A stretch of DNA of 64,000 bases, taken from the sequence record MF402939. One strand, given 5' to 3'. The position numbers and the translations under genes were made by a program. Below the pieces are notes generated by a model that was given only the letters and a program-made list of their open reading frames with translations, made no database searches and was not told where the DNA came from. The DNA is from Escherichia phage OSYSP. Shown here piece by piece: positions 1 to 29,101 of this stretch (position 1 is its first letter; the number at the start of each line of letters is the position of its first letter).

Positions 1-159
1 ATGTGGGAAGACTGTCCAATACTTCTTGCGGTTGTTCTTCACACGTTGCCGATGGTGACGTCTTAATGCTCGATCCACACATTTCTCCTAAAACTTGAGA
101 GATAAATGGAGTTTGCTCGACTACCTTGCGTAGCTGGGAGAAATCGTACCCAAACCCCA

Positions 160-528
160 TTATATCGCCTGAGTAAATGTACGACTAATAACGTCGTTCT
201 GTTGTTCACGCGTCAATGCGTTAAATCGAACAGCATAGCCAGAGACACGGATGGTCAACTGAGGATATTTTTCAGGATGTTTCTGTGCATCCAAAAGCTG
301 ATCACGGCTTAACACATTGACATTTAGGTGCTGACCACCCTCGACTTGAGGAACCACTTCCACATCTACAATGCGAAAGGCCTCAGAGTCAAAGTGAGGT
401 GTGATACCTTCTAGATCTTCAACTAGAACTTTCTGTTTAAGTTCACCATCTTTAGAATATAGTTGAATGATCTGATTGTTATGAACAATGTTAATTACGC
501 CAGACTTAAGACTTTGATATGCTTTCAT
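160..528 (-). CDS. GrcA/YfiD-like autonomous glycyl-radical cofactor protein
   Basis: 122-aa ORF; C-terminal half carries the glycyl-radical domain signature [11 protein letters not shown]...[20 protein letters not shown]...TFT as in E. coli GrcA and pyruvate formate-lyase C-terminus; GGGAGA just upstream of ATG. Confidence 0.8.
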
Positions 529-898
529 TAGATCTCCCTGATGTTAGAATTTGGCTCAGCTTTTTGTTAACCCAGAAGCAAGATAAAAACTGGAAGGCAG
601 GCTTGCTTATTATCTAATCACTAGATACTGTTGGGGGTGCTAGCATTCCGGTGAGATTGATGGTCTCGATTAGATAAATAAGCACTGGAACTTTGATTTT
701 AACGTTGCGATCTTCCAGGTCTGTTGCAACTACGTGATTGCTCACGCTAAGACAATGGCTATCTAAAGTCTTAGCTTCTACATTTATACTCCTGGGTAGC
801 ATGGAGTTGCAGTCTACTTCCTGCTGTCACGCCCGGCCATTTATAGAATGTGGACTCTCTTCTCAGCAGGATCTGGTACAATGACCTGATCCTCTGTT

Positions 899-974
899 TG
901 GTAGTTAGTAGTGGATTTGAACCACTGTAGTCGCTCCGTATGAAGGAGGTGCATAACCGCTCTGCCAACTAACT
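899..974 (-). tRNA. tRNA, anticodon CAT (Met or Ile2)
   Basis: Cloverleaf folded by eye: acceptor AGTTAGT/ACTAACT, T-arm AGTGG-TTCAAAT-CCACT, anticodon loop TTCATAC, encoded CCA. Confidence 0.55.
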
Positions 975-980
975 ATAATT

Positions 981-1056
981 TGGTACTCCGACTTGGGATC
1001 GAACCAAGATTTGACGATTATCGGTCGCCTGTTCTAACCTGTTGAACTATCAGAGC
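981..1056 (-). tRNA. tRNA-Ile (anticodon GAT)
   Basis: Acceptor GCTCTGA/TCGGAGT (two G-U pairs), D-arm GTTC..GAAC, anticodon arm GGCGA-CCGATAA-TCGTC, T-arm CTTGG-TTCGATC-CCAAG, CCA encoded; position 33 is C. Confidence 0.55.
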
Positions 1057-1057
1057 A

Positions 1058-1351
1058 TTACATCATTTCATCTAAGTAAGAGGTATACTGGTATTTAGCT
1101 TCCCCAGTTTTATCTACTTCGACTTCTGTTCTAGGTACTTTTCGTACCAGACCATGAATCATTTTGTACTGAATAGCCTTAGATGGTTCGTGATCTTTTG
1201 GAAATACTTGTTTAACCGTTACTACTTTGAATCCTTCACGAGGAGTTAGCACAACAACTTGATCACCTTCTTTAATTTTCCAGGACTCAGGAAATTCGTA
1301 AGTGTAGCGTTGACCACCAGTTTGGAACACGACAGAAAGATAACGTTTCAT
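1058..1351 (-). CDS. hypothetical protein (97 aa)
   Basis: ORF track; AAGGGA Shine-Dalgarno upstream; sits between tRNA genes, downstream of a consensus promoter. Confidence 0.6.
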   Translation of the reverse strand: MKRYLSVVFQTGGQRYTYEFPESWKIKEGDQVVVLTPREGFKVVTVKQVFPKDHEPSKAIQYKMIHGLVRKVPRTEVEVDKTGEAKYQYTSYLDEMM

Positions 1352-1381
1352 TTGGTTTCCCTTTCATTAATTTATATAAAT

Positions 1382-1410
1382 ATTATAACAAGAAATAAGA
1401 GAGAAGGCAA
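1382..1410 (-). promoter_or_regulatory. sigma70-type early promoter (TTGCCT-17-TATAAT)
   Basis: Read on minus strand; AT-rich upstream region; member of the repeated promoter family in this window. Confidence 0.6.
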
Positions 1411-1425
1411 ATGAATTTTTAAATT

Positions 1426-1500
1426 TGGTGCTCCCACCAGGAATCGAACCCGGTTCAGATGCTTACAAGGCAACTGCATCGCCAGCAATGCTTTAGGAGC
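1426..1500 (-). tRNA. tRNA-Thr (anticodon TGT)
   Basis: Acceptor GCTCCTA/TGGGAGC, anticodon loop CTTGTAA, T-arm CCGGG-TTCGATT-CCTGG, CCA encoded. Confidence 0.6.
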
Positions 1501-1667
1501 AATAAACCCGTTATTTCAACGGGATTTCTTTTTCAAATATAGGGGACTTATCAGACATTACTGTCATAGCCAACTGCTGTAGAAATTCGAATGAGAGTTT
1601 TAAACGTTCTTCTCCTAACTCAACCTCAACGCACTTCATTCGTTTATCTACTTTTAGCTTTAGATTA

Positions 1668-1889
1668 TCAGCCATCTTCGGATTCTCTTTGCTCAGCTAT
1701 TGCTAGCCAGTCTGGTAAAAGAAACTTCGTACGAAATTCTTCATATGTTTCTTCTGGATGAAAGCTATAGCCTTGTTTTTCATCATTTAATAAAACCGAA
1801 CCATCTTCTTGCTCATAAGCTCGGTATGTTTCACCAATAATTAAAACTCGTCTATTAGGATTTTTATTACGAAACTCAAAAACGTCCAT
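1668..1889 (-). CDS. hypothetical protein (73 aa)
   Basis: ORF track; AAGGA SD upstream. Confidence 0.55.
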   Translation of the reverse strand: MDVFEFRNKNPNRRVLIIGETYRAYEQEDGSVLLNDEKQGYSFHPEETYEEFRTKFLLPDWLAIAEQRESEDG

Positions 1890-1904
1890 AACGTTTCCTT
1901 AAAT

Positions 1905-1979
1905 TGGTGCGGGATACGAGAGTCGAACTCGTGTCTACTGGTTGGAAGCCAGTTATTCTAGCCACTGAACTAATCACGC
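1905..1979 (-). tRNA. tRNA-Gly (anticodon TCC)
   Basis: Anticodon arm ACTGG-CTTCCAA-CCAGT, D-arm GTTC-AGTGGCTA-GAAT, CCA encoded; one acceptor mismatch. Confidence 0.6.
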
Positions 1980-1985
1980 ATAAAT

Positions 1986-2061
1986 TGGCTGGAGAAGGAG
2001 GAATCGAACCTACCATTAACGGAGTCAAAGGCCGTTGTGCTAACCATTACACTACTCTCCA
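1986..2061 (-). tRNA. tRNA-Gln (anticodon TTG)
   Basis: Acceptor starts U1 (TGGAGAG/TTCTCCA) with discriminator G as in bacterial tRNA-Gln; anticodon loop CTTTGAC; CCA encoded. Confidence 0.6.
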
Positions 2062-2067
2062 AGTATT

Positions 2068-2143
2068 TGGCTGGGATGCCACGGATCGAACGTGGGACCT
2101 TCGGAGTCAGAGGCCGACGATCTGCCAATTGATCTACATCCCA
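2068..2143 (-). tRNA. tRNA-Gln (anticodon CTG)
   Basis: Acceptor TGGGATG/CATCCCA, anticodon loop CTCTGAC, T-arm CCACG-TTCGATC-CGTGG, discriminator G, CCA encoded. Confidence 0.6.
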
Positions 2144-2156
2144 ATAATTCTTTACT

Positions 2157-2351
2157 CTACGGAAATAGAGTAACTGGCTCAGGTTCTTCAAGGCGCTTAC
2201 CTTCATGATCTACTCGAATGACTCCGCATCCTTCGCAAACCACAACTGCACCATAACCTTCTTTGACTTCGGCTTCTGTAATCAGACCAGCTAAGTCACC
2301 AGTATCTTTACCCCACATATCAATGGAGCATTGTTTGCAGAAATCAGCCAT
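2157..2351 (-). CDS. small zinc-ribbon-like protein (64 aa, CxxC...CxxC)
   Basis: ORF track; two CxxC pairs; AGGA upstream. Confidence 0.55.
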   Translation of the reverse strand: MADFCKQCSIDMWGKDTGDLAGLITEAEVKEGYGAVVVCEGCGVIRVDHEGKRLEEPEPVTLFP

Positions 2352-2376
2352 ATTTTATTTCCTATTTAAGTTAATT

Positions 2377-2453
2377 TGGGGTGGCTAGTGGAATTCGAAT
2401 CCACATAGGCCTGATTCACAATCAGGATCATTAACCAATTATGATATAGCCAC
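2377..2453 (-). tRNA. tRNA-His (anticodon GTG)
   Basis: Acceptor GTGGCTA/TAGCCAC, anticodon arm CCTGA-TTGTGAA-TCAGG, T-arm GTGGA-TTCGAAT-TCCAC, discriminator C, CCA encoded. Confidence 0.7.
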
Positions 2454-2820
2454 AATTGAAAACTCGCAGGGTTAGCGAAACCATCCTCAATTAGCATGTT
2501 CTAGAATACTAATCAAGTTATCTCCTATTGCACGCAGCTCAAGACGAGTACGAATTTTCAATTGTGGCGGCTCTCAGAAACTCTTCTATTCTAGCCTCAG
2601 AAGCTTACCCCCGAACGCATGTCGGGAAAGTCTTTCCAAGCGCATCAAATAGCACCGTTACACTTTGAGCCATTGATGTATCAAGGAATAGAAGGACTTG
2701 AACCTTCATGAGTTAGACCATTTAACTCAACCGCTTTTAAGGTATATTTCTAGGAGTGGATGTTCCTAGTAAACCTATTGGGCAGTCCCGTCTACCAATT
2801 CCGGCATATTCCAAGAATTT

Positions 2821-3003
2821 TTATAAACCAGCGGAAGCCTCATTTAAAGCATCAACAATAGCCTGTTGTTGAGTCCATCCTCTACCAGTAGAATTAACGT
2901 GTGGAAGATATACTTCCCAATAACCGTCTTCTAGTAAGGTTATTTGTGCACTAAACTCTGTGCCATCAGTTAGTGTAACCTTCACAGTTTTCGTTAAAGA
3001 CAT
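2821..3003 (-). CDS. hypothetical protein (60 aa)
   Basis: ORF track only; weak SD. Confidence 0.4.
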   Translation of the reverse strand: MSLTKTVKVTLTDGTEFSAQITLLEDGYWEVYLPHVNSTGRGWTQQQAIVDALNEASAGL

Positions 3004-3019
3004 ATATTACCCTATAAGT

Positions 3020-3109
3020 TGGCAGAAGATAATGGAGTCGAACCATCACCGTATCACTACAGCGGGCTGGTTTTCAAGACCAGTTACGTACCACTACGTC
3101 CTATCTTCT
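3020..3109 (-). tRNA. tRNA-Ser (anticodon TGA), type II
   Basis: Acceptor AGAAGAT/ATCTTCT, anticodon arm CTGGT-CTTGAAA-ACCAG, long variable arm, CCA encoded. Confidence 0.6.
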
Positions 3110-3122
3110 AGTATTTATTATA

Positions 3123-3470
3123 CTAATAGTCACTCGTACTAGTGAAGTTTTCTACTTTTCCACAGATTTTACAAGTCCTACGATGATAATAGGTAATTTT
3201 TACTTTAGACCAGCCATCGTGATCATTACCTAGGTTTTCTGTTACTCCCCAAGTATGAGAACACTCATTTTCAATTTGCTTAGTAAGAGCGTTATAGCGA
3301 GTATAAAACTCCTCCTGAGCAATAGCAAATTCTTTCTGTAGTTTATCACGAGCAATAATAGCACGTTCCAGATATGTTAAATCAGGCATTCCAGCTTTTT
3401 CAGCTGCATCTATAATCTTATCTTCATCTAAAGATGCTAAAAACTCTAGAGCTTTATCTTTTGCTAGCAT
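3123..3470 (-). CDS. hypothetical protein (115 aa) with C-terminal zinc-ribbon-like motif
   Basis: ORF track; GAGGT SD; C-terminal C..H...CKICG. Confidence 0.6.
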   Translation of the reverse strand: MLAKDKALEFLASLDEDKIIDAAEKAGMPDLTYLERAIIARDKLQKEFAIAQEEFYTRYNALTKQIENECSHTWGVTENLGNDHDGWSKVKITYYHRRTCKICGKVENFTSTSDY

Positions 3471-3489
3471 TATTATTACCTCAATTGTT

Positions 3490-3580
3490 TGGCGGAAGAG
3501 GAGAGATTTGAACTCTCAAGCCGTTTTACCAGTCAGCCACTTTCCAAGCGGTTTTCGTCGCCAATTCGATTTGCTCTTCC
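3490..3580 (-). tRNA. tRNA-Ser (anticodon GGA), type II
   Basis: Acceptor GGAAGAG/CTCTTCC, T-arm GAGAG-TTCAAAT-CTCTC, anticodon loop TTGGAAA with 4-bp stem, long variable arm, CCA encoded. Confidence 0.5.
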
Positions 3581-3692
3581 AATAATAAGATGATGCCTCT
3601 ATCACACCAGGCAGTTACGCCTCGCTGGGATTCGAACCCATTAAAACAGCTCAACCGAGATAGTAGGTTTAATTTACTCTGACCATCAAATT

Positions 3693-3769
3693 TGGTGCGT
3701 GACAAGGGATTCGAACCCTCAAAACCCGACTTCTAAGGACGGTATGTATGCCAATTCCATCAATCACGC
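3693..3769 (-). tRNA. tRNA, anticodon TAG (Leu CUA reader?) with short variable arm
   Basis: Acceptor GCGTGAT/GTCACGC, anticodon arm CCGTC-CTTAGAA-GTCGG, T-arm GAGGG-TTCGAAT-CCCTT, discriminator A, CCA encoded; 77 nt, not the type II length expected for Leu. Confidence 0.45.
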
Positions 3770-3774
3770 GTATT

Positions 3775-3853
3775 TGGTGGAGGATAACGAATTCGAATCG
3801 TTCTGATGTCCTCGGTGCAAGCGAGGTGTCCACCCCTAGCAGACCCATCCCCC
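3775..3853 (-). tRNA. tRNA-Ala (anticodon TGC)
   Basis: Acceptor GGGGGAT/ATCCTCC with G3-U70 pair (Ala identity), anticodon arm CCTCG-CTTGCAC-CGAGG, T-arm AACGA-TTCGAAT-TCGTT, CCA encoded. Confidence 0.65.
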
Positions 3854-4092
3854 AAATTCTTTAGTTTACTAAGGCTATTAGCTCGGCGTAACTACAGCAC
3901 CTTCGCTTCGAGCGGAAGGAACCGCGTCATCTCGCAAACCCGATACACTATTCAGTTGCCGTTGAATCTAGTGGACTAATCTAGAACTTCTCCCGAATCG
4001 TAGGGATCGTGCTTTTTGGCAGCCAGTCCTAGGTCGAGCTAATACCTTAGTGAACTATGATGGGGATTTCTCCCCTATCAATTAATATAAAT

Positions 4093-4121
4093 ATTATAAC
4101 AAGAAATTAAGCATTAAGCAA
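4093..4121 (-). promoter_or_regulatory. sigma70-type promoter (TTGCTT-17-TATAAT) driving leftward transcription into ORF-free region 3854-4092
   Basis: Consensus hexamers with 17-nt spacer on minus strand; overlaps stop of CDS 4114-4473. Confidence 0.6.
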
Positions 4122-4473
4122 GTACATTTTTGCAGATTTCTTGTAGTTCCTTTACATCACGAACGTAAAGGTAGTCTGAACTTCCAGAGTGCATACTTTG
4201 CATAAACACACCCTCATCTGGCGCAGCATCCTTCAAAGTAATTCCTAACCAAAAAGCGGCAAAACGAGGTGTTACCTCACCTTGACTTGCCTTGAATACA
4301 TCGGCTTCTGTGATCTCCTGACCAGTAGAAAGTCCCATATACGGTACGTTCAGATCAATATCTTTGTAGAATTCAGCTAGGTCTTGTTCGAAGTCCCAAC
4401 CTTTAGAGATAGCGAACTCTATTGTTACATGACCGAAATAGCCTTGAACCTTGCTTGATAATTGCATTTGCAA
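4114..4473 (-). CDS. hypothetical protein (119 aa)
   Basis: ORF track; AAGGA SD. Confidence 0.6.
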   Translation of the reverse strand: MQMQLSSKVQGYFGHVTIEFAISKGWDFEQDLAEFYKDIDLNVPYMGLSTGQEITEADVFKASQGEVTPRFAAFWLGITLKDAAPDEGVFMQSMHSGSSDYLYVRDVKELQEICKNVLA

Positions 4474-4492
4474 TTCCTTATTTTGAGTTAAT

Positions 4493-4566
4493 TGGTACTC
4501 GGTGATAGAATCGAACTATCGCAACCGCCGTGTAAAGACGGGGTTCTCCCATTAAACTAACCGAGC
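4493..4566 (-). tRNA. tRNA-Val (anticodon TAC)
   Basis: Acceptor GCTCGGT/ACCGAGT, anticodon arm CCGTC-TTTACAC-GGCGG, T-arm GATAG-TTCGATT-CTATC, CCA encoded. Confidence 0.6.
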
Positions 4567-4699
4567 AAAAGATTTGCTACTAAAAATGCTTCGAACAGAA
4601 ATTCACAAAATCCCGCTAAAAACATACCTATTGTAAAATCGGCAGAAAATACATAGGAATCTTTTATTTTCTGCTTCATTAAGTAAAACCAGATAGTCA

Positions 4700-5017
4700 T
4701 TAAAATCTCTCCATTCTAAAGCCAATGAAGTAAGGTGCATTACACGGAACATGCTTAAGATCTTTAAGGGTAATTTTACGTCCTAAGCGTCGTTCCATAC
4801 AAGTGAAACATAGAACAATATCTTTGGGCTGCTCTTTTCTTATCTGATCCCAGACCCAATCTTCAACCATACACATTTCATGGTATTGTTCACAGTCTCG
4901 ACAATAATGACACTGATGTTCTGGTACTTTTTGATTTTTAATACACAGTTCAGTAAAGCGTTTTCCGGCTCTGCCAGACATTTCTGATATTGTTTCTAGA
5001 ACTTTGTTAATATTCAT
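4700..5017 (-). CDS. cysteine/histidine-rich hypothetical protein (105 aa)
   Basis: ORF track; AAGGA SD; multiple CxxC/HxxC motifs. Confidence 0.6.
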   Translation of the reverse strand: MNINKVLETISEMSGRAGKRFTELCIKNQKVPEHQCHYCRDCEQYHEMCMVEDWVWDQIRKEQPKDIVLCFTCMERRLGRKITLKDLKHVPCNAPYFIGFRMERF

Positions 5018-5034
5018 AACAAATTCCTTTAAAT

Positions 5035-5113
5035 TGGTAGATCGCCTGGGACTCGAACCCAGAACCTTCCGATTAAAAGTCGGATGCTACTAAACCTATT
5101 GAGCTAGCGATCT
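5035..5113 (-). tRNA. tRNA-Lys (anticodon TTT)
   Basis: Acceptor AGATCGC/GCGATCT, anticodon arm TCCGA-CTTTTAA-TCGGA, T-arm CTGGG-TTCGAGT-CCCAG, CCA encoded. Confidence 0.6.
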
Positions 5114-5114
5114 A

Positions 5115-5282
5115 TTAATAACCATTGTATACTTCTTTAATAGAGTGAACTTTCAAGTAAGGGTGATTAGTACTAAACTCTACCATTACTTCATCCCAAT
5201 TTTTACCATAATGAGCAAGTAAGGATTTTGATGTATTCTTACCTAAACGTTTGTCACTTACTACTAATCGAAATACTTTCAT
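5115..5282 (-). CDS. small hypothetical protein (55 aa)
   Basis: Not in ORF track (under 60 aa); ATG preceded by GAGGA at 7-nt spacing; fills gap between two tRNAs. Confidence 0.4.
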   Translation of the reverse strand: MKVFRLVVSDKRLGKNTSKSLLAHYGKNWDEVMVEFSTNHPYLKVHSIKEVYNGY

Positions 5283-5302
5283 TTCGAAATCCTCTATTAA
5301 AG

Positions 5303-5380
5303 TGGAAGCGGGTGCAGGAATCGAACCTACCTCTTTCTAGCTTATGAGACTAGCGATCTCTACCAGAGATCTAACCCGCA
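5303..5380 (-). tRNA. tRNA, anticodon CAT (Met or Ile2)
   Basis: Anticodon arm CTAGT-CTCATAA-GCTAG, T-arm GTAGG-TTCGATT-CCTGC, CCA encoded; position 1-72 is T-T. Confidence 0.55.
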
Positions 5381-5386
5381 ATTGTT

Positions 5387-5464
5387 TGGTCTCCGTGGGA
5401 GGATTTGAACCCCCGACCCTATCGCCCCAAACGAAACGCTCTGGCCAAACTGAGCTACACGGAG
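5387..5464 (-). tRNA. tRNA-Pro (anticodon TGG)
   Basis: Acceptor CTCCGTG/CACGGAG, D-arm GCTC..GAGC, anticodon loop TTTGGGG, T-arm GGGGG-TTCAAAT-CCTCC, CCA encoded. Confidence 0.55.
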
Positions 5465-5468
5465 AATA

Positions 5469-5627
5469 TTATTTCTTTAACCACAGCAAAGATAAGCCCA
5501 GCATACTAAAACCGCTAACTAATCCGATACATTTTTCTTCTATAGTAAGAGTATCTAGATTAAATGCTGTTATAGCTATTGGCATACACCATAATGCCAT
5601 AAAAACTTGAGCTATCTTGTGTTTCAT
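5469..5627 (-). CDS. small hydrophobic peptide (52 aa, likely membrane)
   Basis: Not in ORF track; ATG with AAGGA SD immediately downstream of promoter 5660-5688; translation MKHKIAQVFMALWCMPIAITAF... is hydrophobic. Confidence 0.4.
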   Translation of the reverse strand: MKHKIAQVFMALWCMPIAITAFNLDTLTIEEKCIGLVSGFSMLGLSLLWLKK

Positions 5628-5659
5628 TTTGCTTTCCTTCTCTTCACTTTATAAAATAT

Positions 5660-5688
5660 ATTATACAGAGAATTAAGCAGAATAGCAA
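5660..5688 (-). promoter_or_regulatory. sigma70-type early promoter (TTGCTA-17-TATAAT)
   Basis: Consensus hexamers on minus strand with AT-rich upstream element. Confidence 0.65.
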
Positions 5689-5999
5689 ATGAATTTTTAA
5701 TAAATTTACTTATTGTGTAGGCCACCTGGAGGCTATGAACCCCACGGCTGACAAAGAAGTTTGCGAGACCTCTCTTAAATGCCAGAATAGACCCGCCTAT
5801 CTATCGGAACCTACTCAATAAGTAAACTTTCGTTTACTTACGCCCCGTTAGAGGGACTTTAGCGACTAGAACCGGCCGGAAACTTTATCGCCTTGTTTAT
5901 TAAGAAGTCCGTTCTCTAGGAAGCAGAAATCTAAATTTGGTGGAGTTTGGGAGACTACGTGTTACTTCCTCTGTCCGAAGTAGGACAGTGCTTAACCGT

Positions 6000-6191
6000 T
6001 TAGCTGAACCCCTTTAAATATTTATACGTTTTATCTAACAACTCTTGTTTAGAGATTATACCATCACGATATTCAGTAATAAAATTATCTATGTTGGAGT
6101 CCTTTGATACAACGTTATCAGATAGCTCTGTGAATTTATTTGCTAAAAGATCTAATTCTTTGTAATTCACAAAACCTCCAGAATATGTCAT
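6000..6191 (-). CDS. hypothetical protein (63 aa)
   Basis: ORF track; no clear SD. Confidence 0.35.
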   Translation of the reverse strand: MTYSGGFVNYKELDLLANKFTELSDNVVSKDSNIDNFITEYRDGIISKQELLDKTYKYLKGFS

Positions 6192-6431
6192 TCTAGTCAG
6201 GACTTGAACCTGCTATCACTTGTGCGGACTTACGAGAACCATTCTTTCACTCGAATCGAACGAGCTTCTGCCCTAGCCAAGCTGGTTTCCCCATCAACCA
6301 CGCTAGAATGTTTGATTGTTTTCAGTGCAAGAGTCCGAGTCTTGGACACGACCGCTTCGCAAATACATAGGCAGCTTATCATGAGTCGGCACTTCCGAAT
6401 TGCTAGCTCCGTGTTCTGCACTGAAATTTTG

Positions 6432-6779
6432 TTAATTTAATAGTAAAGTACGATCTACTTCACCATTAATTGTTCGGCATTCTTCTGGGATTGCCGGTGT
6501 AGTCTTATATTCCCACCATTCAGAACCATCATATTCACCACGTTCTAACCAAGTTCCATCGGTAAACCATACGTTACCATAAAGCAATTGTCCGCCGAAA
6601 CCAGAATCATATTTAAAGTCTAGATTATCTAGAAAATCTTCAATATCTTTTTCTGTATAACCTACGGGTAATACCCAAACTTCTTTATCCCCATAATAAC
6701 CGAATTCTATCTTAATACACTTAACTTCAGAATTAGTATTCTTTAGGGCAAGTAACAATTCTTCTTTAGCATTAATCAT
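6432..6779 (-). CDS. hypothetical protein (115 aa)
   Basis: ORF track; weak SD. Confidence 0.55.
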   Translation of the reverse strand: MINAKEELLLALKNTNSEVKCIKIEFGYYGDKEVWVLPVGYTEKDIEDFLDNLDFKYDSGFGGQLLYGNVWFTDGTWLERGEYDGSEWWEYKTTPAIPEECRTINGEVDRTLLLN

Positions 6780-6805
6780 AGCGTATTTCTCGTGCTAGTT
6801 TAGTT

Positions 6806-6882
6806 TGGCGCGACCGATGGGATTCGAACCCACATTCTCTCCCGTGACAGGGGAGTACCATTACCAAGCCAGCCCCGGTCGC
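6806..6882 (-). tRNA. tRNA-Asp (anticodon GTC)
   Basis: Acceptor GCGACCG/CGGTCGC, anticodon arm CTCCC-CTGTCAC-GGGAG, T-arm GTGGG-TTCGAAT-CCCAT, discriminator G, CCA encoded. Confidence 0.7.
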
Positions 6883-6891
6883 ATAATTCAT

Positions 6892-7077
6892 TTACTCAGC
6901 TTTGAGTTTTTCAATAGCTGCATTAAGTTCCTTAAGAAACTCTTTTCGTACATTAAGACGATTAAGACTTACTAGTATATCATGTTTAAGTTCTTCGATG
7001 TATTTCTTCTCAACTTCAATATTGTTGATAGTGCTATCACGATGAACTTCTAGCTGTGCAATTACATTCTTGGACAT
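6892..7077 (-). CDS. hypothetical protein (61 aa, predicted coiled coil)
   Basis: ORF track; GAGGA SD. Confidence 0.5.
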   Translation of the reverse strand: MSKNVIAQLEVHRDSTINNIEVEKKYIEELKHDILVSLNRLNVRKEFLKELNAAIEKLKAE

Positions 7078-7104
7078 GCTTGTTTCCTCAGTTATTAATG
7101 AAAA

Positions 7105-7177
7105 TGGTATCTGTGGCTGAATTCGATGTCAGCAATGATAGCTGGTTGGCTACCGGTTTACTTAACTCTACACAGAA
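7105..7177 (-). tRNA. tRNA-like element, non-canonical (possible TCA-containing anticodon loop)
   Basis: 3' CACAGAT-A-CCA pairs with 5' TTCTGTG; stem CAGC/GCTG flanks loop TATCATT; D-arm and T-loop are atypical. Confidence 0.3.
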
Positions 7178-7179
7178 TT

Positions 7180-7262
7180 TGGCGGGCCGTGTAGGATTCG
7201 AACCTACGTTGTCTTTCGACATGGATTAACAGTCCACCGCCAAACCGCTTGGCTAACGACCC
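7180..7262 (-). tRNA. tRNA, anticodon GTT (Asn-type anticodon arm) with extended variable hairpin
   Basis: Acceptor GGGTCGT/ACGGCCC, D-arm GCCA-AGCGGTT-TGGC, anticodon arm GTGGA-CTGTTAA-TCCAT, 13-nt variable hairpin GTCGAAAGAC, T-arm GTAGG-TTCGAAT-CCTAC, CCA encoded. Confidence 0.55.
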
Positions 7263-7269
7263 TAAAATT

Positions 7270-7345
7270 TGGACGACCGCATGAGATTTGAACTCACATA
7301 AAAAGGATTTGCAATCCTTCGCCTAAGCCATTCAGCCAACGGTCG
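7270..7345 (-). tRNA. tRNA-Cys (anticodon GCA)
   Basis: Acceptor CGACCGT/GCGGTCG, anticodon arm AAGGA-TTGCAAA-TCCTT, T-arm GTGAG-TTCAAAT-CTCAT, CCA encoded. Confidence 0.65.
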
Positions 7346-7523
7346 ATTTATCTTGTTTTTCGAGATCTTCAAATTCTAAATCATTGAAGTTCCCTAGAGT
7401 ACGTGTATAGAACCCGTCTCCTGAGTCATAGCCTGATTTAGCACAATCACACATTTTAAATTCACGAAGATGTGTGAAGACATGTTCAGAACCACAACAC
7501 TTAAATATAACTAATCGTTTCAT
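7332..7523 (-). CDS. hypothetical Cys-containing protein (63 aa)
   Basis: ORF track; start overlaps stop of upstream ORF; last codons overlap the 5' end of tRNA-Cys. Confidence 0.45.
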   Translation of the reverse strand: MKRLVIFKCCGSEHVFTHLREFKMCDCAKSGYDSGDGFYTRTLGNFNDLEFEDLEKQDKSTVG

Positions 7524-7760
7524 TTACTCTCCAGTAGGATTATCTAAGGTATACTGAGTAGCTACTCCAGCTACATCTAGCAGACTTCCCATATTCCTAA
7601 TAACTCTAGAGATTGCGTCACCTTCGGCAGTTTCTGTAAACACCTTAAGTCTTAAGAAATCGCCACCACCATCCATACCAGAGAAAATATTTAGTAAGCG
7701 AAGCATTACCAACTTACGTTCATTCAATTCTTGTTCTGTCATGTTGCTTCTCCAGTTCAA
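7524..7760 (-). CDS. hypothetical protein (78 aa)
   Basis: ORF track; GGAGA SD. Confidence 0.6.
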   Translation of the reverse strand: MNWRSNMTEQELNERKLVMLRLLNIFSGMDGGGDFLRLKVFTETAEGDAISRVIRNMGSLLDVAGVATQYTLDNPTGE

Positions 7761-7792
7761 TTTATGTAATTATTATATAGAACTTTTGGAAA

Positions 7793-8065
7793 CTAAGCAA
7801 CTACATTTTTTAAGAATTTGATGCCTTTCTTTTTCTTCTTATATTTCCACGTTAATGGATTTTGTCGATTATGAACGCTTGAGATCTTTGTCTCGTCAAA
7901 GTTCTTCAATATCATGTAATCACAGGATAATTGTTCTAGTGGAATGTGATCACCGTCAAAAGCGTATACATAAGGCTGTTGACTAGCACGATAATGATAG
8001 ACTTTGTTAATTCTACGTTTCAGCGACTTATCCGCGCAGTAAATAAAGAAGTTTTCAGGATGCAT
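7793..8065 (-). CDS. hypothetical protein (about 90 aa)
   Basis: ORF track ORF 7793-8080 trimmed to internal ATG (MHPENFF...) that has AGGAG at 6-nt spacing; the first ATG abuts the tRNA 3' end. Confidence 0.5.
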   Translation of the reverse strand: MHPENFFIYCADKSLKRRINKVYHYRASQQPYVYAFDGDHIPLEQLSCDYMILKNFDETKISSVHNRQNPLTWKYKKKKKGIKFLKNVVA

Positions 8066-8082
8066 CAGCATCTCCTTCAATT

Positions 8083-8157
8083 TGGTGCACCCTGTTCGAA
8101 TTGAACGAACCTCTCAAGCTCTTCAGGCAAGCGCTAATCCATCTCAGCTAAAGGTGC
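8083..8157 (-). tRNA. tRNA, probable anticodon GAA (Phe?), weak anticodon stem
   Basis: Acceptor GCACCTT/AGGGTGC, T-arm GTTCG-TTCAATT-CGAAC, loop CTGAAGA at standard positions 32-38 but stem has two T-T mismatches; CCA encoded. Confidence 0.4.
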
Positions 8158-8163
8158 AAATTT

Positions 8164-8234
8164 TGGCAGGGGTAAAGGTATTCGAAACCTTTTCATGGGT
8201 TTTGGAGGCCCATTTGCAACCTATGCGTACCCCA
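8164..8234 (-). tRNA. tRNA-Trp (anticodon CCA), compact D-arm
   Basis: T-arm AAGGT-TTCGAAT-ACCTT, anticodon arm TGGGC-CTCCAAA-ACCCA, 3' TACCCCT-G-CCA; T1-T72 mismatch. Confidence 0.45.
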
Positions 8235-8243
8235 ATTGTTAAT

Positions 8244-8318
8244 TGGCACACCCACGGAGAATTGAACTCCGATTCTCAGATTGAAATCCTGATGTCCTAG
8301 CCATTAGACGATAGGTGC
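8244..8318 (-). tRNA. tRNA-Glu (anticodon TTC)
   Basis: Acceptor GCACCTA/TGGGTGT (G-U pairs), anticodon arm TCAGG-ATTTCAA-TCTGA, T-arm CGGAG-TTCAATT-CTCCG, CCA encoded. Confidence 0.6.
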
Positions 8319-8326
8319 ATTAAATT

Positions 8327-8414
8327 TGGTGGGCGTTAATGGAGTCGAACCACTCGAGTCGCAATGACCAGGGATTTACAATCCCCTCCGCTACCACTTA
8401 CGGAATAAACGCCC
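8327..8414 (-). tRNA. tRNA-Tyr (anticodon GTA), type II
   Basis: Acceptor GGGCGTT/AACGCCC, anticodon arm GGGGA-TTGTAAA-TCCCT, long variable arm, T-arm TGG-TTCGACT-CCA, CCA encoded. Confidence 0.7.
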
Positions 8415-8542
8415 ATATTTAGAAGCATTCAAATACTTGTTTAAACACTTTTAAATATGTTTCCAAATTAGATAACTATTATATCAAGTTTTAAGGCACT
8501 GAGCAAGTCAGATTTTGAAGAACTTGCTCAGTGCTGTATTAG

Positions 8543-8818
8543 TTAGTCGAACTTAGGAGTGACAATTAAAGAGAATGGGAGTTCGAAAACTTCTTCACCC
8601 TCATTACTAACAGTAACTACACGACCTTTAAGTTCAGACATTGAAATATCAATATCAGCTTTTGCATCTGGAGCCATTCCAGCTTCAACACATTTAGCTT
8701 TAACTTCCGGAAGGAGTTCTACATCGTAGAAATAAAGCCATTCAATCTCACCTTCCCAGCCTTCCCAGGATTTACAGATTGCACTTTCAATACCAGTTGC
8801 TATAACACGATTTTGCAT
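8543..8818 (-). CDS. hypothetical protein (91 aa)
   Basis: ORF track; AGGAG SD; followed on minus strand by a 13-bp-stem hairpin (about 8470-8515). Confidence 0.6.
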   Translation of the reverse strand: MQNRVIATGIESAICKSWEGWEGEIEWLYFYDVELLPEVKAKCVEAGMAPDAKADIDISMSELKGRVVTVSNEGEEVFELPFSLIVTPKFD

Positions 8819-8908
8819 TCGTTAACTCCTTCATCAATTTATATAACTATTATATCAGAAATTTAAAGTAAAAGGCAAGTACATTTTTAAAAATTCTGTT
8901 CGGAGGAG

Positions 8909-9115
8909 CTAAACTCCAGATTCTTCGGCCAAGTCTAGACTAATAAGAGTTATAGCCATAATTGCTGCACCGTGTTCTTTTTCTCCGGTGTTTTTAGCAG
9001 AGCCTATAATATCCTTAATCTGTTCGTAATAACTTTTTACTTCTTGTTCAATGCCTGCCTCGGCTATCATGCCTTTAGTCATGAATCGTTGCATGGTAAT
9101 TTCAGGATTAGCCAT
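8909..9115 (-). CDS. hypothetical protein (68 aa)
   Basis: ORF track; ATG overlaps stop of upstream small ORF (ATGGCTAA). Confidence 0.55.
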   Translation of the reverse strand: MANPEITMQRFMTKGMIAEAGIEQEVKSYYEQIKDIIGSAKNTGEKEHGAAIMAITLISLDLAEESGV

Positions 9116-9275
9116 GTTGTTTCTCCAGTTTCATTTTTAATAGTTTACAGATGAAATCAACGTCTTCATCTGTGCCTAAGTCTCTATCTTCAAGGGTCGC
9201 CTTGAAGTTTTTCGTCAATTCCATAAGGATGACTTCCCTAGAACGACGTGTTGGTGGCGGAGGAGGTCTATACAT
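9108..9275 (-). CDS. small proline-rich hypothetical protein (55 aa)
   Basis: Not in ORF track; ATG with AAGGA SD; stop overlaps next start; translation MYRPPPPPTRRSREV... Confidence 0.4.
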   Translation of the reverse strand: MYRPPPPPTRRSREVILMELTKNFKATLEDRDLGTDEDVDFICKLLKMKLEKQHG

Positions 9276-9290
9276 CTTAATTCCTTAATT

Positions 9291-9367
9291 TGGTAGGGGT
9301 GGTGGGATTCGAACCCACAAAACCTGAATTTTAAGTCCAGTACCTATGCCAATTCGATTACACCCCC
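9291..9367 (-). tRNA. tRNA, anticodon TAA (Leu UUA reader?) with short variable arm
   Basis: Acceptor GGGGGTG/CACCCCT, anticodon arm CTGGA-CTTAAAA-TTCAG, T-arm GTGGG-TTCGAAT-CCCAC, discriminator A, CCA encoded; 77 nt. Confidence 0.45.
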
Positions 9368-9474
9368 ATGTAATCAGTTTATTAGTTGATACATATTATA
9401 GCCTAAAGAAAACCCTACTACTAATCCTACGAACCAACCAATATAATAATCTTTTAATTTCACGGGTGTCAACC

Positions 9475-9654
9475 TCATTCAATATCTAGAGAAATACCAC
9501 AGGTAGGATTAATGCCTGTGCCTTTGCACGTAGGACAAACCCAGATATTACAGAATGTATCCCCTGCTTCTGCATCAGAACTTTCTCCAACTCCTAGACA
9601 GTCAGGACAGGCACATTCTTCTAGCTCTTGCTTGAGTTCTTGAAACTTAGACAT
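9475..9654 (-). CDS. small zinc-ribbon protein (59 aa, two CxxC pairs)
   Basis: Not in ORF track; ATG with AAGGA SD; translation MSKFQELKQELEECACPDCLG...CPTCKGTG. Confidence 0.45.
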   Translation of the reverse strand: MSKFQELKQELEECACPDCLGVGESSDAEAGDTFCNIWVCPTCKGTGINPTCGISLDIE

Positions 9655-9663
9655 ATAGTTTCC

Positions 9664-9852
9664 TTATTCAATTACTTTTGAGGCTTCAAGGGAGTCGATA
9701 TAGTGTACGTTTTCTACCATAATCATATAATCTGCCACTTTATCCATAGCCTGAACTTCAGAGGTAGCCCTGGCTAACCTATATCCTTTTTTATATTCAT
9801 CCGGGTATTCCCTATCTGGAATAAACACAACACAAACTAGGTATAGTTCCAC
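9664..9852 (-). CDS. hypothetical protein (62 aa)
   Basis: ORF track. Confidence 0.45.
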   Translation of the reverse strand: MELYLVCVVFIPDREYPDEYKKGYRLARATSEVQAMDKVADYMIMVENVHYIDSLEASKVIE

Positions 9853-9873
9853 TTGTAACCTCTCTAATCAAGA

Positions 9874-9951
9874 TGGTGGCTCCCCGAGGATTCGAACCTA
9901 CGTACCTTCCGGTTATGAGCCGGGTGCTCATACCATATGAGCTTGAGAACC
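9874..9951 (-). tRNA. tRNA, anticodon CAT, initiator-like anticodon arm
   Basis: Acceptor GGTTCTC/GGGAGCC, anticodon arm CCGG-CTCATAA-CCGG followed by GAAGG as in initiator tRNA; T-stem imperfect; CCA encoded. Confidence 0.45.
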
Positions 9952-9957
9952 AGAATT

Positions 9958-10046
9958 TGGCGGAAGAAGTGGGAATCGAACCCACAAGGCTATATTTCAA
10001 ACCGACAGATTAGCAATCTGCTGCAATACCGTTATGCTATTCTTCC
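9958..10046 (-). tRNA. tRNA-Ser (anticodon GCT), type II
   Basis: Acceptor GGAAGAA/TTCTTCC, anticodon arm GCAGA-TTGCTAA-TCTGT, long variable arm, T-arm GTGGG-TTCGATT-CCCAC, CCA encoded. Confidence 0.65.
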
Positions 10047-10067
10047 GAATTTATAAGATATATTATA

Positions 10068-10586
10068 TTAGAAATTTAGCTTCATAGCAAGAAAATTTTT
10101 CAAGTTTTCGGTAGACATCTCATCCACATCTACAGGAGAAACAAATCCATTTAATTGTCTAGCAAATTTTTCACCAGCAGGATCATTATCCCCAACAGCT
10201 ACCAATTTAAAAGGTAGTAATTTCAATTGCTTTAACAACGCTTTTCCTGGAGAAGAACCCAACATTGCCAGGGCTGGATAACCAGCGTTATGTAATGCTA
10301 CTGCCTTAAATACAGATTCAGCAATCAATACTACTTTTTCATCCCCAGTGAGGGTTTCTAGCCCCCATACACACTGTGTAGTAGAATAAGTAAAATATCT
10401 AGCTTCAAAGGGGCACTTACCATGACCTTTTGGAGCAGAAGGATTATACGTCTGATAGCCTCTCAACATCCCAGAGAAGTCATACAATGGGACTGTTAGC
10501 CATCCTTCCGGACTTAACCAGCAATGATACTTATCTGTATCAAACCCTCTAGATAAGAGATGTTCTGTTAGTTCATCAACAGTCAT
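10068..10586 (-). CDS. small Toprim-domain protein (about 172 aa)
   Basis: Start moved to ATG (MTVDEL...) after GAGAGAGG SD, because the first ATG of track ORF 10068-10637 lies inside the promoter; motifs IAESV...GSS...LVAVGDNDPAGEKFA match a Toprim fold. Confidence 0.6.
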   Translation of the reverse strand: MTVDELTEHLLSRGFDTDKYHCWLSPEGWLTVPLYDFSGMLRGYQTYNPSAPKGHGKCPFEARYFTYSTTQCVWGLETLTGDEKVVLIAESVFKAVALHNAGYPALAMLGSSPGKALLKQLKLLPFKLVAVGDNDPAGEKFARQLNGFVSPVDVDEMSTENLKNFLAMKLNF

Positions 10587-10616
10587 ATTAGATTCCTCTC
10601 TCAAATTTATAAATAT

Positions 10617-11833: not shown

Positions 11834-11854
11834 AATTAAGGGGAGGAGCCCATT

Positions 11855-27226: not shown

Positions 27227-29101
27227 ATGAATCGCAATGATGAACTAAAATACAAGGAAATGCAGTCCTTGATTAGAAACTGCAAAGAAATTATTGAGGG
27301 TTCTGCTGATGAAGAGCTTCTCTTTAATAATGCGAATAAACCCTCTGAGCGTTTCCCTACACAAAGGGATATGCTTGCAGGGGAATTGAGTAAATATCTG
27401 ATTCTAGAAGAAATGCCAATTCAGATTCGAAATGCTCATATGATTGGTGATATTCACTTTCATGATGCTGATTACGCTGCTTTAGGCATGACTAACTGTT
27501 GTCTAGTAGCCCTGGAAGATATGTTGAAAAATGGTATGAAAGTTGGTAATGCTGAAATTAGCACTCCAAATTCTATTACTACTGCGGCTGCTATTACAGC
27601 TCAGATTATCACACAGGTTAGCTCCCATCAGTATGGTGGTACTTCTGTAGACCGATTAGATGAAGTATTGGCTCCTTATGTTCGTAAGTCTTACGATAAG
27701 AATCATGCGTTTGCAAAACGTTGGACTAAGGACGAAGCCAAAGCATCAGTAATGGCTACGGAGATGACTGAAAAAGAAGTCTATGATGCTTGTCAGGGTC
27801 TAGAGTATGAAATCAATACGATGTTCAACTCTAATGGTCAGAGTCCATTTATTACCTTTGGTTTTGGTCTAGGAACTTCTTGGGAATCACGTCTAGTACA
27901 GAAAGCAATACTGAAAGTACGTATGGATGGCCTAGGCATCAATAAACGTACAGCTATCTTTCCTAAACTGGTGTTTGTTCTGCGCGATGGCGTAAATATG
28001 AAGCCAGGAGATGTTAATTATGACATCAAGAAGTTAGCTATGAAATGTACTGCTGAACGTATGTATCCAGACTATATCAGCTATGATAAGGTTGTGGAAG
28101 TTACTGGTGACTATAAAGTTTCTATGGGCTGCCGTTCATTCCTAGCTGCTGCAGAAGATGGTGAAACTGCCGGTCGTAATAACTTAGGTGTTGTTTCTGT
28201 AAACTTGCCTAGAATTGCTATCGAAGCTGAAGGGAATATTGATCTATTCTTTGATTTGCTTGAGTTACGTGTGGATACAGCGTTAAAAGCATTGGAGTGG
28301 AGGGTTGATCGCTTAAAATACATTCAAGCTAAAGCCGCACCCATCCTCTATATGTCAGGAGCCTTTGGATTACGCTTAGGGCCTGATGAGTATGTATTCG
28401 ATCATTTCTATAACCGTGCTTCTGTATCTCTGGGGTATATTGGTTGCCATGAAATGCTACAGTTCATGTTTGGCAAAGATGTAGATACAATGTCAGATAC
28501 CTGTATTAAGTTTGTACAACGTGTTCTACAGTATATGCGGGATAGAGTGGATCAGAAGAAGGAAGAGACTCAGTTAGGCTATAGTCTGTATGCTACACCA
28601 TCTGAATCCTTATGTGATCGTTTCTGTCGTTTAGATCGTGAATATTTTCCAGAGCATGAAGATATTCTTGGTAAAGGTTACTACACTAACTCACACCACC
28701 TCGATGTGGAGCGTAAGGTTGCTCCAAACGTGAAGTTTGACTATGAATCTAATTTTACTCCAATTGCATCTGGTGGGTGTATTTCCTACGTGGAATTACC
28801 AGACATGAAACGATTCCCAGATGCACTGGAATGGGTTATTAACTATGCTGCTAGTAAGGTTCATTACTTCGGTATTAATACTCCAGTGGATTCCTGTGGT
28901 AAATGTGGATTCTTAGGTGAAACAGTAGCATCCGAAGATGGATTCAAGTGCCCTATCTGTGGTAATCATGACCCTGAAACTCTTGAAGTAACTCGTCGAG
29001 TTTGTGGGTATCTTGGAAATCCAGGCGCTCGTCCATTTAACCCAGGCAAACAACATGAGGTTATGGGCAGGGTGAAACATCAGGATATTCGAGCTAAATA
29101 A
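27227..29101 (+). CDS. nrdD: anaerobic ribonucleoside-triphosphate reductase (class III)
   Basis: 624 aa; C-terminal glycyl-radical motif RVCGYLG and preceding Cys cluster (CGKCGF...CPICG); AAGGAGAG SD. Confidence 0.85.
   Translation: MNRNDELKYKEMQSLIRNCKEIIEGSADEELLFNNANKPSERFPTQRDMLAGELSKYLILEEMPIQIRNAHMIGDIHFHDADYAALGMTNCCLVALEDMLKNGMKVGNAEISTPNSITTAAAITAQIITQVSSHQYGGTSVDRLDEVLAPYVRKSYDKNHAFAKRWTKDEAKASVMATEMTEKEVYDACQGLEYEINTMFNSNGQSPFITFGFGLGTSWESRLVQKAILKVRMDGLGINKRTAIFPKLVFVLRDGVNMKPGDVNYDIKKLAMKCTAERMYPDYISYDKVVEVTGDYKVSMGCRSFLAAAEDGETAGRNNLGVVSVNLPRIAIEAEGNIDLFFDLLELRVDTALKALEWRVDRLKYIQAKAAPILYMSGAFGLRLGPDEYVFDHFYNRASVSLGYIGCHEMLQFMFGKDVDTMSDTCIKFVQRVLQYMRDRVDQKKEETQLGYSLYATPSESLCDRFCRLDREYFPEHEDILGKGYYTNSHHLDVERKVAPNVKFDYESNFTPIASGGCISYVELPDMKRFPDALEWVINYAASKVHYFGINTPVDSCGKCGFLGETVASEDGFKCPICGNHDPETLEVTRRVCGYLGNPGARPFNPGKQHEVMGRVKHQDIRAK

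What the first reader, a model, noticed from the sequence alone, without database searches (positions are those of the whole stretch)
160..528. GrcA-like glycyl-radical 'spare part' protein 27 kb from a class III RNR gene (nrdD)
CDS 160-528 is unmistakably a GrcA/YfiD-type glycyl-radical domain. Such proteins can replace the oxygen-damaged glycyl-radical C-terminus of glycyl-radical enzymes. The phage also encodes NrdD (27227-29101), whose own glycyl-radical motif (RVCGYLG) is oxygen-labile. No NrdG activase gene is evident in this window.
Basis: partly seen in the sequence, partly recalled or inferred. Interest (0 to 1): 0.55.

Follow-up and report, generated by a model that had tools for sequence, protein, structure and literature searches.

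The report
Phage GrcA-type glycyl-radical spare-part protein
A T5-like phage carries a small, intact gene of the GrcA/Y06I "spare part" family, which most likely repairs the host's oxygen-damaged pyruvate formate-lyase rather than the phage's own anaerobic ribonucleotide reductase. The family has been known in phage T4 since 2001, so the finding is real but ordinary.

Summary
Observation confirmed. Window 160-528 (minus strand) is an intact 122-aa ORF. Its C-terminal 62 residues are a PFL-type glycyl-radical domain with the RVSGYAVRF motif (radical Gly97, codon 238-240).

The window is a T5-like phage (Demerecviridae). The gene is the orthologue of T5.056 (93% aa) and occurs in about 430 T5-like records. 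It is a full-length homologue (50% identity, PHROG 1209) of T4 vs.6/Y06I. Y06I and E. coli YfiD/GrcA are the two proteins shown biochemically to restore oxygen-cleaved pyruvate formate-lyase after activation by host PflA.

The domain is 76-84% identical to E. coli PflB, TdcE and GrcA. It has no significant similarity to the phage's NrdD C-terminus, which carries a Zn-ribbon and RVCGYLG. The hinted "spare part for NrdD" reading is therefore not supported.

NrdD (27227-29101) is real. No NrdG or PflA activase exists in the window or in the rest of a close relative's genome, so both phage glycyl-radical proteins must depend on host activases.

One indirect link is plausible but untested: repaired PFL makes formate, which is the reductant of E. 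coli-type NrdD.

Verdict: a known kind of gene, inconsistently annotated in T5-like genomes. Low novelty.

The parts
160..528 (-). GrcA/Y06I-type autonomous glycyl-radical protein, 122 aa (orthologue of T5.056)
   Evidence: ORF; Pfam, NCBIfam, PHROG and PDB matches; 93% aa identity to T5.056 and 100% to Salmonella phage LVR16A
345..528 (-). N-terminal half (residues 1-61). Phage-type and divergent from YfiD's N-terminus. Predicted as a small beta sheet.
   Evidence: Shares the MKAYQ start and overall pattern with T4 Y06I and other phage and bacterial members. AF2 pLDDT is 80-90 for residues 1-50, with strands 2-6, 12-16, 19-26, 29-37 and 51-54. It is more variable among T5-like orthologues: 24 variable positions against 8 in the C-terminal half.
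163..344 (-). Glycyl-radical domain (residues 62-122), equivalent to PflB 698-759 and YfiD 66-127
   Evidence: HMMER alignments; identity matrix; 34 invariant columns; Foldseek best hit is the 6owr YfiD NMR structure, and other GRE C-termini fit at rmsd 0.6-1.1 A
238..240 (-). Codon of the predicted radical glycine Gly97 within RVSGYAV
   Evidence: The heptapeptide is identical to the PFL-AE substrate peptide RVSG734YAV (PMC10665898).
534..538 (-). Shine-Dalgarno-like GGGAG, 5 nt upstream of the ATG
   Evidence: Sequence read directly
1382..1410 (-). Candidate early promoter (TTGCCT-17-TG-TATAAT) for the unit ORF 1058-1351, tRNA-Ile, tRNA-Met, ORF 614-802, grcA-like gene. Inferred.
   Evidence: Consensus scan. 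Its position corresponds to promoter P11 annotated upstream of T5.058 in T5.
27227..29101 (+). Phage class III ribonucleotide reductase NrdD (624 aa). It is not a target of the spare part but a possible indirect beneficiary through formate.
   Evidence: Pfam NRDD 571.8 bits. 54% identity to E. coli NrdD, retaining the equivalents of C175, M382 and C384 (C91, M300, C302). Gly594 codon at 29006-29008 and Zn-ribbon cysteines at 557/560/575/578.

Best explanation
The gene encodes a phage version of the autonomous glycyl-radical cofactor (YfiD/GrcA in E. coli, Y06I/vs.6 in T4).

Proposed mechanism. It is expressed early from the T5-type tRNA/early region. The host pyruvate formate-lyase activating enzyme PflA (radical SAM) recognises the RVSGYAV loop and abstracts a hydrogen from Gly97. 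The C-terminal 62-residue domain then occupies the place of the glycyl-radical domain of host PflB, and probably TdcE, whose own domain has been cleaved at Gly734 by oxygen or is otherwise inactive. This passes the radical to Cys419 and restores conversion of pyruvate (or 2-ketobutyrate) to acyl-CoA plus formate. The N-terminal half probably helps docking to damaged PFL, as YfiD's N-terminus does.

Benefit to the phage. Host fermentative energy and acetyl-CoA supply continue during infection in microaerobic habitats after host gene expression has been shut off. Formate, the reductant of the phage's E. coli-type NrdD, also continues to be made.

What is shown and what is inferred. Shown here: sequence, fold and family membership, conservation, and absence of a phage activase. 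Shown by others for T4 Y06I and YfiD: activation by PflA and rescue of cleaved PFL. Inferred for this protein: all biochemical steps and the benefit to the phage.
For: (1) The domain is PFL-type: Pfam, NCBIfam and PDB hits and 76-84% identity to PflB, GrcA and TdcE over 62 aa.

(2) The RVSGYAV heptapeptide is identical to the minimal PflA substrate. Gly97 and 33 other positions are invariant across 68 phage and bacterial homologues.

(3) It shows full-length homology to T4 vs.6/Y06I: 50% identity, E 6e-35, and the same PHROG. Y06I and YfiD are the two biochemically validated PFL spare parts (PMC8683613).

(4) The AF2 model places Gly97 at the tip of a beta-hairpin (92-95/98-101) followed by a C-terminal helix. 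The best structural match is the YfiD NMR structure.

(5) The gene is under purifying selection and conserved in about 430 T5-like records at 80% identity or more. Its GC of 40% equals the window's 39.4%, so it is an old resident gene.

(6) No PflA- or NrdG-like radical-SAM gene is found in the window or in the rest of the genome of the close relative GEC_vB_N3. Activation must therefore use a host enzyme, as for Y06I.

(7) GrcA restores formate production to catalytically dead PflB G734A in vivo (PMC12338860).
Against: No experiment exists on any T5-like orthologue.

The protein scores below NCBIfam's curated GrcA cutoffs: 118.7 against 170 for TIGR04365, and 116 against 158 for GrcA3. Validated T4 Y06I is also below cutoff at 151.1.

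The N-terminal half, which in YfiD matters for binding cleaved PFL and for radical installation, is very divergent here and is predicted as folded rather than disordered.

T4 Y06I is a weaker proxy than it looks. Its 3' half is 97.8% identical in DNA to E. coli grcA, so the published assay essentially tested the host's own radical domain. The T5-type domain differs from each host paralogue at 10-15 of 62 positions.
Confidence: 0.75

Rival explanations
1. Spare part for the phage's own class III ribonucleotide reductase. The small protein would replace the oxygen-cleaved glycyl-radical C-terminus of NrdD.
For: Both genes are in the same phage. Both carry an R-V-x-G-Y core. PMC8683613 speculates that spare parts for other GREs may exist.
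Against: There is no significant similarity between the two domains (blastp E 27; 9/60 identities when anchored on the glycine). The NrdD radical domain is built on a CX2C...CX2C Zn-ribbon that this cysteine-free protein lacks. The protein is 76-84% identical to PFL-type domains. The loop is the PflA substrate sequence, not the NrdG one. The genes are 26.7 kb apart on opposite strands.
Confidence: 0.03
2. Radical donor or booster for intact host PFL/TdcE rather than a repair part. The phage would use it to raise PFL flux, and so formate and acetyl-CoA, irrespective of oxygen damage. The main selective benefit would be formate supply to the formate-dependent phage NrdD.
For: GrcA restores formate production to full-length inactive PflB G734A in vivo. 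The window NrdD keeps the E. coli-type C175/M382/C384 triad. E. coli and T4 class III RNRs use formate as electron donor (PMC4390871). PflB and TdcE are the formate-generating enzymes (abstract of PMC5600444). Every phage group seen with the GrcA-like gene (T5-like, T4-like, KVP40-like, 350-kb jumbo phages) also has NrdD-bearing members.
Against: Co-occurrence could not be computed genome by genome. Many NrdD phages lack the gene (2926 against 1581 records). No experiment links the two. Host formate pools may not be limiting.
Confidence: 0.15
3. Decoy or inhibitor. The protein would sequester host PflA or occupy PFL non-productively to shut down or redirect host fermentation.
For: It carries the exact PflA recognition loop and a divergent N-terminal half. 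T5 is known for broad host shut-off (background knowledge).
Against: All 34 invariant radical-domain positions, including Gly97, are strictly conserved, which a simple decoy would not need. The T4 homologue is catalytically productive.
Confidence: 0.05
4. Remnant of a captured host pflB/tdcE gene: a non-functional pseudogene fragment.
For: Many GenBank records name it 'pyruvate formate-lyase' or '2-ketobutyrate formate-lyase'.
Against: The ORF is intact with an SD sequence and ATG. It matches a phage family of the same length end to end. There is no further PFL similarity anywhere in the window. It is conserved in hundreds of genomes with a far less variable C-terminal half. Its GC content equals that of the phage.
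Confidence: 0.01

Closest known systems
Bacteriophage T4 Y06I (gene vs.6), autonomous glycyl radical cofactor
   Same: Same size (120 against 122 aa). Homologous over the full length (50% identity, MKAYQ start, same PHROG 1209). Identical RVSGYAVRF loop. Encoded by a large virulent enterobacterial phage that also has NrdD.
   Different: The T4 radical domain is 95% (aa) and 97.8% (nt) identical to E. coli grcA, which points to a recent exchange with the host. The T5-type domain is equidistant from grcA, pflB and tdcE (about 75% nt) and closest to TdcE in protein (84%). T4 encodes its own NrdG; T5-like phages encode no activase. The N-terminal halves are only weakly similar.
E. coli YfiD/GrcA (PDB 6owr; TIGR04365)
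   Same: Stand-alone protein of about 14 kDa. The C-terminal 62 aa are 79% identical. It is the best sequence and structure match in the PDB.
   Different: The profile match covers only positions 58-125, and the score (118.7) is below the equivalog cutoff (170). The N-terminal 55 residues are not recognisably aligned. That region is predicted as an ordered beta sheet here, whereas YfiD residues 1-60 are disordered in NMR.
C-terminal glycyl-radical domain of PflB and TdcE (formate C-acetyltransferases)
   Same: 76% (PflB 698-759) and 84% (TdcE) identity. Same loop and the same C-terminal helix sequence ([18 protein letters not shown] as in TdcE).
   Different: Lacks the roughly 700-residue catalytic barrel with Cys418 and Cys419, so it cannot be an enzyme on its own.
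Class III RNR NrdD glycyl-radical domain
   Same: Belongs to the same Pfam Gly_radical superfamily. R-V-x-G-Y core.
   Different: No significant pairwise similarity. NrdD has a Zn-ribbon and RVCGYLG and is activated by NrdG, not PflA.

Membership tests
Glycyl radical domain (Pfam PF01228) | Score above the gathering threshold, with the conserved radical glycine in the RVxG[FWY] loop | tested here: met
   66.4 bits against a cutoff of 22.2. RVSGYAV with Gly97 is invariant in 68 homologues.
Phage Y06I/vs.6 family (PHROG 1209) | Full-length homology to T4 Y06I-type proteins of about 120 aa | tested here: met
   PHROG 1209 E 5.6e-47 over residues 1-122 of a 121-position profile. 50% identity to T4 vs.6 over the full length, E 6e-35.
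GrcA/YfiD equivalog (NCBIfam TIGR04365, GrcA2, GrcA3) | Whole-protein score at or above the curated cutoff | tested here: not met
   118.7 against 170; 116 against 158; 90 against 145. As calibration, validated T4 Y06I also fails (151.1) while E. coli GrcA passes (234). The cutoff therefore delimits bacterial GrcA, not function.
GrcA/YfiD equivalog | Small stand-alone protein whose C-terminal half duplicates PFL residues ~693-759 | tested here: met
   122 aa. Residues 61-121 align to PflB 698-758. Fold match to 6owr and to GRE C-termini.
GrcA/YfiD equivalog | N-terminal half homologous to YfiD residues 1-60 | tested here: inconclusive
   The HMM alignment starts at residue 54. The multiple alignment shows a shared loose pattern (M-x-G/A-Y/I-Q start, R-E/D-V before the domain) but low identity.
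GrcA/YfiD functional class (spare part) | Glycyl radical installed by PflA; restores activity of O2-cleaved PFL | not testable with these tools
   Known only for YfiD and T4 Y06I. Here there is only the identical PflA substrate heptapeptide.
Full-length pyruvate/2-ketobutyrate formate-lyase (TIGR01255), as many records name it | Catalytic barrel of about 750 aa with the Cys-Cys active site | tested here: not met
   84 bits against a cutoff of 994; only profile positions 683-743 match. No other PFL-like sequence in the window.
NrdD-type radical domain (hypothetical NrdD spare part) | Zn-ribbon CX2C...CX2C plus RVCGYLG, with similarity to the NrdD C-terminus | tested here: not met
   No cysteines. 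Blastp against the window NrdD gives E 27. 9/60 identities when anchored on the glycine.

The most novel reading that the evidence does not exclude
T5-like phages carry two glycyl-radical proteins (NrdD and the GrcA-like protein) but no activase. The GrcA-like protein may exist mainly to keep host PFL/TdcE producing formate, the obligatory reductant of the phage's E. coli-type NrdD. Host fermentation would then be coupled to phage dNTP synthesis in low-oxygen habitats such as the gut. Its distinct, apparently folded N-terminal domain and TdcE-like radical domain would adapt it to this role.
Probability: 0.2. Interest if true: 0.45.

Novelty: already known. Interest (0 to 1): 0.2.

Why it matters
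It matters mainly for annotation and phage physiology. The gene is labelled inconsistently in hundreds of T5-like genomes: 'acetyltransferase-related', 'ribonucleotide reductase subunit', '2-ketobutyrate formate-lyase', or 'unknown function' in PHROGs. It should be named an autonomous glycyl-radical cofactor.

It is a clean example of a virulent phage carrying a repair part for a host central-metabolism enzyme. T5-like phages would also offer a second, evolutionarily independent radical domain with which to test the spare-part mechanism and its possible formate link to anaerobic dNTP synthesis. No new principle is involved.

Tried and rejected
(1) NrdD spare-part idea: rejected by direct comparison.

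(2) Pseudogene fragment: rejected.

(3) Phage-encoded activase. tblastn with T4 NrdG, E. coli NrdG and PflA, plus a CX3CX2C scan of the window and of the remaining genome of GEC_vB_N3, found nothing.
- The only motif hit in a real gene is the 97-aa T5.055 homologue just downstream (CICSCWMCGNPRK). It is too small for a radical-SAM enzyme and has no Pfam match.
- Collection-wide counts agree. NrdD is in 2926 phage records and NrdG in 2273. For Salmonella phages the gap (399 against 126) is about the number of T5-like records.

(4) Literature search for any treatment of the T5-like gene found none in the held library. Only T4 Y06I is covered.

(5) Rfam scan of 1-15000: only tRNAs.

(6) Pfam and PHROG searches on neighbouring small ORFs: families of unknown function only.

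(7) A genome-by-genome GrcA x NrdD co-occurrence table could not be built, because the search tools list at most 60 records.

It was repeated without that row.

Full report
**1. What is there**

Window 160-528 holds a 122-aa ORF on the minus strand, running from ATG at 526-528 to TAA at 160-162. A GGGAG Shine-Dalgarno-like sequence lies 5 nt upstream.

The translation is [122 protein letters not shown].

- Pfam Gly_radical: 66.4 bits, E 3.7e-18.
- Best solved relatives: E. coli GrcA (6owr, E 1.8e-29) and PflB (E 1.4e-26).
- The radical glycine of the RVSGYAV loop is Gly97, codon 238-240.

**2. Whose genome is it**

The first 3 kb match 467 phage records. The best are Salmonella and Escherichia T5-like phages of the Demerecviridae, at 94-96% nt identity.

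The protein is 100% identical to that of Salmonella phage LVR16A and 93% identical to T5.056 of phage T5. About 430 records carry it at 80% aa identity or more.

The gene sits in the T5 early/tRNA region. There are 23 tRNA genes at 899-13652, all on the minus strand. A strong promoter-like site at 1382-1410 corresponds in position to T5 promoter P11.

GenBank names for the gene are inconsistent: 'putative acetyltransferase-related protein', 'ribonucleotide reductase subunit', '2-ketobutyrate formate-lyase', 'pyruvate formate-lyase'. A T5-like Providencia phage calls it 'Radical cofactor'.

**3. Not a pseudogene fragment**

- Full-length E. coli PflB and TdcE match the window only inside this ORF.
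- The ORF matches the 121-position phage family PHROG 1209 end to end.
- Its GC content (40.1%) equals that of the window (39.4%).
- Among 32 T5-like sequence clusters, the C-terminal half varies at 8 positions and the N-terminal half at 24.

**4. Family relations**

tblastn finds the protein in 1581 phage records: T5-like, T4-like (vs.6), KVP40-like and about 350-kb jumbo phages of enterobacteria, vibrios and aeromonads.

It aligns with T4 vs.6 over its whole length (50% identity). T4 vs.6 is Y06I. Together with E. coli YfiD, Y06I was shown by Wagner et al. (2001) to receive a glycyl radical from PFL activase and to restore activity to oxygen-fragmented PFL. These remain the only two validated spare parts (PMC8683613; PMC13450708).

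In a 68-sequence alignment of phage and bacterial members, 34 positions of the C-terminal domain are invariant, including Gly97.

The protein scores below NCBIfam's GrcA equivalog cutoffs (118.7 against 170). T4 Y06I does too (151.1), whereas E. coli GrcA scores 234. The cutoff therefore delimits bacterial GrcA rather than function.

**5. Which enzyme does it fit**

| Comparison (C-terminal 62 aa unless stated) | Identity |
|---|---|
| E. coli TdcE | 84% |
| E. coli GrcA | 79% |
| E. coli PflB | 76% |
| Phage NrdD, blastp | E 27, no significant alignment |
| Phage NrdD, anchored on the glycines | 9/60 identities |

NrdD's radical loop follows a CX2C...CX2C Zn-ribbon (C557/C560/C575/C578). The small protein has no cysteine at all.

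The RVSGYAV heptapeptide is exactly the minimal substrate of PflA used in structural and EPR work (PMC10665898).

An AlphaFold2 model (mean pLDDT 78) puts Gly97 at the tip of a beta-hairpin followed by the C-terminal helix. Foldseek's best PDB hit is the YfiD NMR structure, and other GRE C-termini superpose at 0.6-1.1 A.

The target is therefore host PFL (PflB and/or TdcE), not NrdD.

**6. The NrdD/NrdG part of the finding**

ORF 27227-29101 (+) is a genuine class III RNR: NRDD 571.8 bits and 54% identity to E. coli NrdD. It has RVCGYLG with Gly594.

No NrdG or PflA homologue exists in the window or in the remainder of the genome of the close relative GEC_vB_N3.

In the phage collection, NrdD occurs in 2926 records and NrdG in 2273. 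For Salmonella phages the gap (399 against 126) is about the number of T5-like records.

T5-like phages thus carry two glycyl-radical proteins and no activase. I infer that they rely on host NrdG and PflA. The NrdD C-terminus (RRVCGYLGNPGARPFNPGKQ) is close to that of E. coli (RRVCGYLGSPDARPFNAGKQ), which is consistent with this.

**7. Mechanism proposed**

The steps below are inferred for this protein and demonstrated only for its homologues.

- The gene is expressed early.
- Host PflA installs the radical on Gly97.
- The domain replaces the cleaved or inactive radical domain of PflB/TdcE and passes the radical to Cys419.
- Acyl-CoA and formate production resume.

In YfiD the N-terminal 60 residues are disordered, yet they matter for binding cleaved PFL and for radical installation. 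Here the N-terminal half is very divergent and is predicted as a five-stranded sheet with pLDDT 80-90. This is the main structural difference and the main uncertainty.

**8. A possible indirect link to NrdD**

- E. coli and T4 class III RNRs use formate as electron donor (PMC4390871).
- The window NrdD keeps the equivalents of E. coli C175, M382 and C384 (C91, M300, C302).
- PflB and TdcE are the cell's formate generators (PMC5600444 abstract).

Keeping PFL alive could thus feed the phage reductase. This is plausible but untested, and many NrdD phages lack the gene.

**9. Evolutionary aside**

The 3' half of T4 vs.6 is 97.8% identical in DNA to E. coli grcA, which looks like a recent exchange. 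The T5-type gene is about 75% identical to grcA, pflB and tdcE alike. The T5-type domain is therefore an older, independent lineage, and the T4 experiment is a less direct proxy for it than the shared family name suggests.

**10. Verdict**

The GrcA-type identification is supported. The hinted NrdD-repair role is not supported. The kind has been known since 2001 and the gene is already annotated, if badly, in hundreds of genomes. Novelty is low and interest is modest.

Noticed in passing
window 1-83 (minus strand, runs off the left edge); L008:27414-27707 (-) in GEC_vB_N3; T5.055: The gene immediately downstream of the GrcA-like gene encodes a roughly 97-103-aa basic protein with a CICSCWMCGNPRK cysteine cluster. 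The cluster formally contains CX3CX2C. The protein has no Pfam match and belongs to PHROG 4499 (unknown function). It is too small to be a radical-SAM activase, but its position next to a glycyl-radical gene is curious.
   Followed up: partly
L007:23558-23920 (T4 vs.6) against L004:1567-1950 (E. coli grcA): The 3' 185 nt of T4 vs.6 are 97.8% identical in DNA to E. coli K-12 grcA, while the 5' half has no DNA match. T4 Y06I therefore looks like a chimera of a phage-type N-terminus and a recently exchanged host radical domain.
   Followed up: partly
window 27227-29101 against L003:8962-10686 (T5 nrdD): The reference T5 NrdD (574 aa) has a 50-aa in-frame deletion (window residues ~393-442). That segment is present in the window's NrdD and in E. 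coli NrdD, so the T5 reference copy may be impaired.
   Followed up: no
window 529-898: A 370-bp segment lies between tRNA-Met and the GrcA-like gene. It carries a 62-aa ORF (614-802, minus strand, PHROG 19031, unknown function). The segment is absent in T5, where tRNA-Met ends 13 bp before the gene.
   Followed up: partly
window 9877-9951 and 14155-14226 (minus strand): Two extra tRNA-model hits in Rfam (40.3 and 35.5 bits) were not called by ARAGORN. They may be degenerate or tRNA-like stable RNAs such as those annotated in T5.
   Followed up: no
window 25860-32207: NrdD is flanked by PhoH, DUF7430, a Sir2-family protein (29878-30702), a HAD_SAK_2 domain protein (30862-31368) and two tandem DUF7415 proteins (31371-32207). 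NrdA and NrdB lie at 22155-25843.
   Followed up: no
proteins P0083 and P0074 (metagenomic, bacterial-type GrcA N-termini): Some bacterial-type GrcA sequences carry a PflB-like rather than GrcA-like C-terminal domain (NVMNREMLLDAMEHPEKY...TKEQQQDVITRTFTQ). This suggests gene conversion between grcA and pflB, or assembly chimeras.
   Followed up: no
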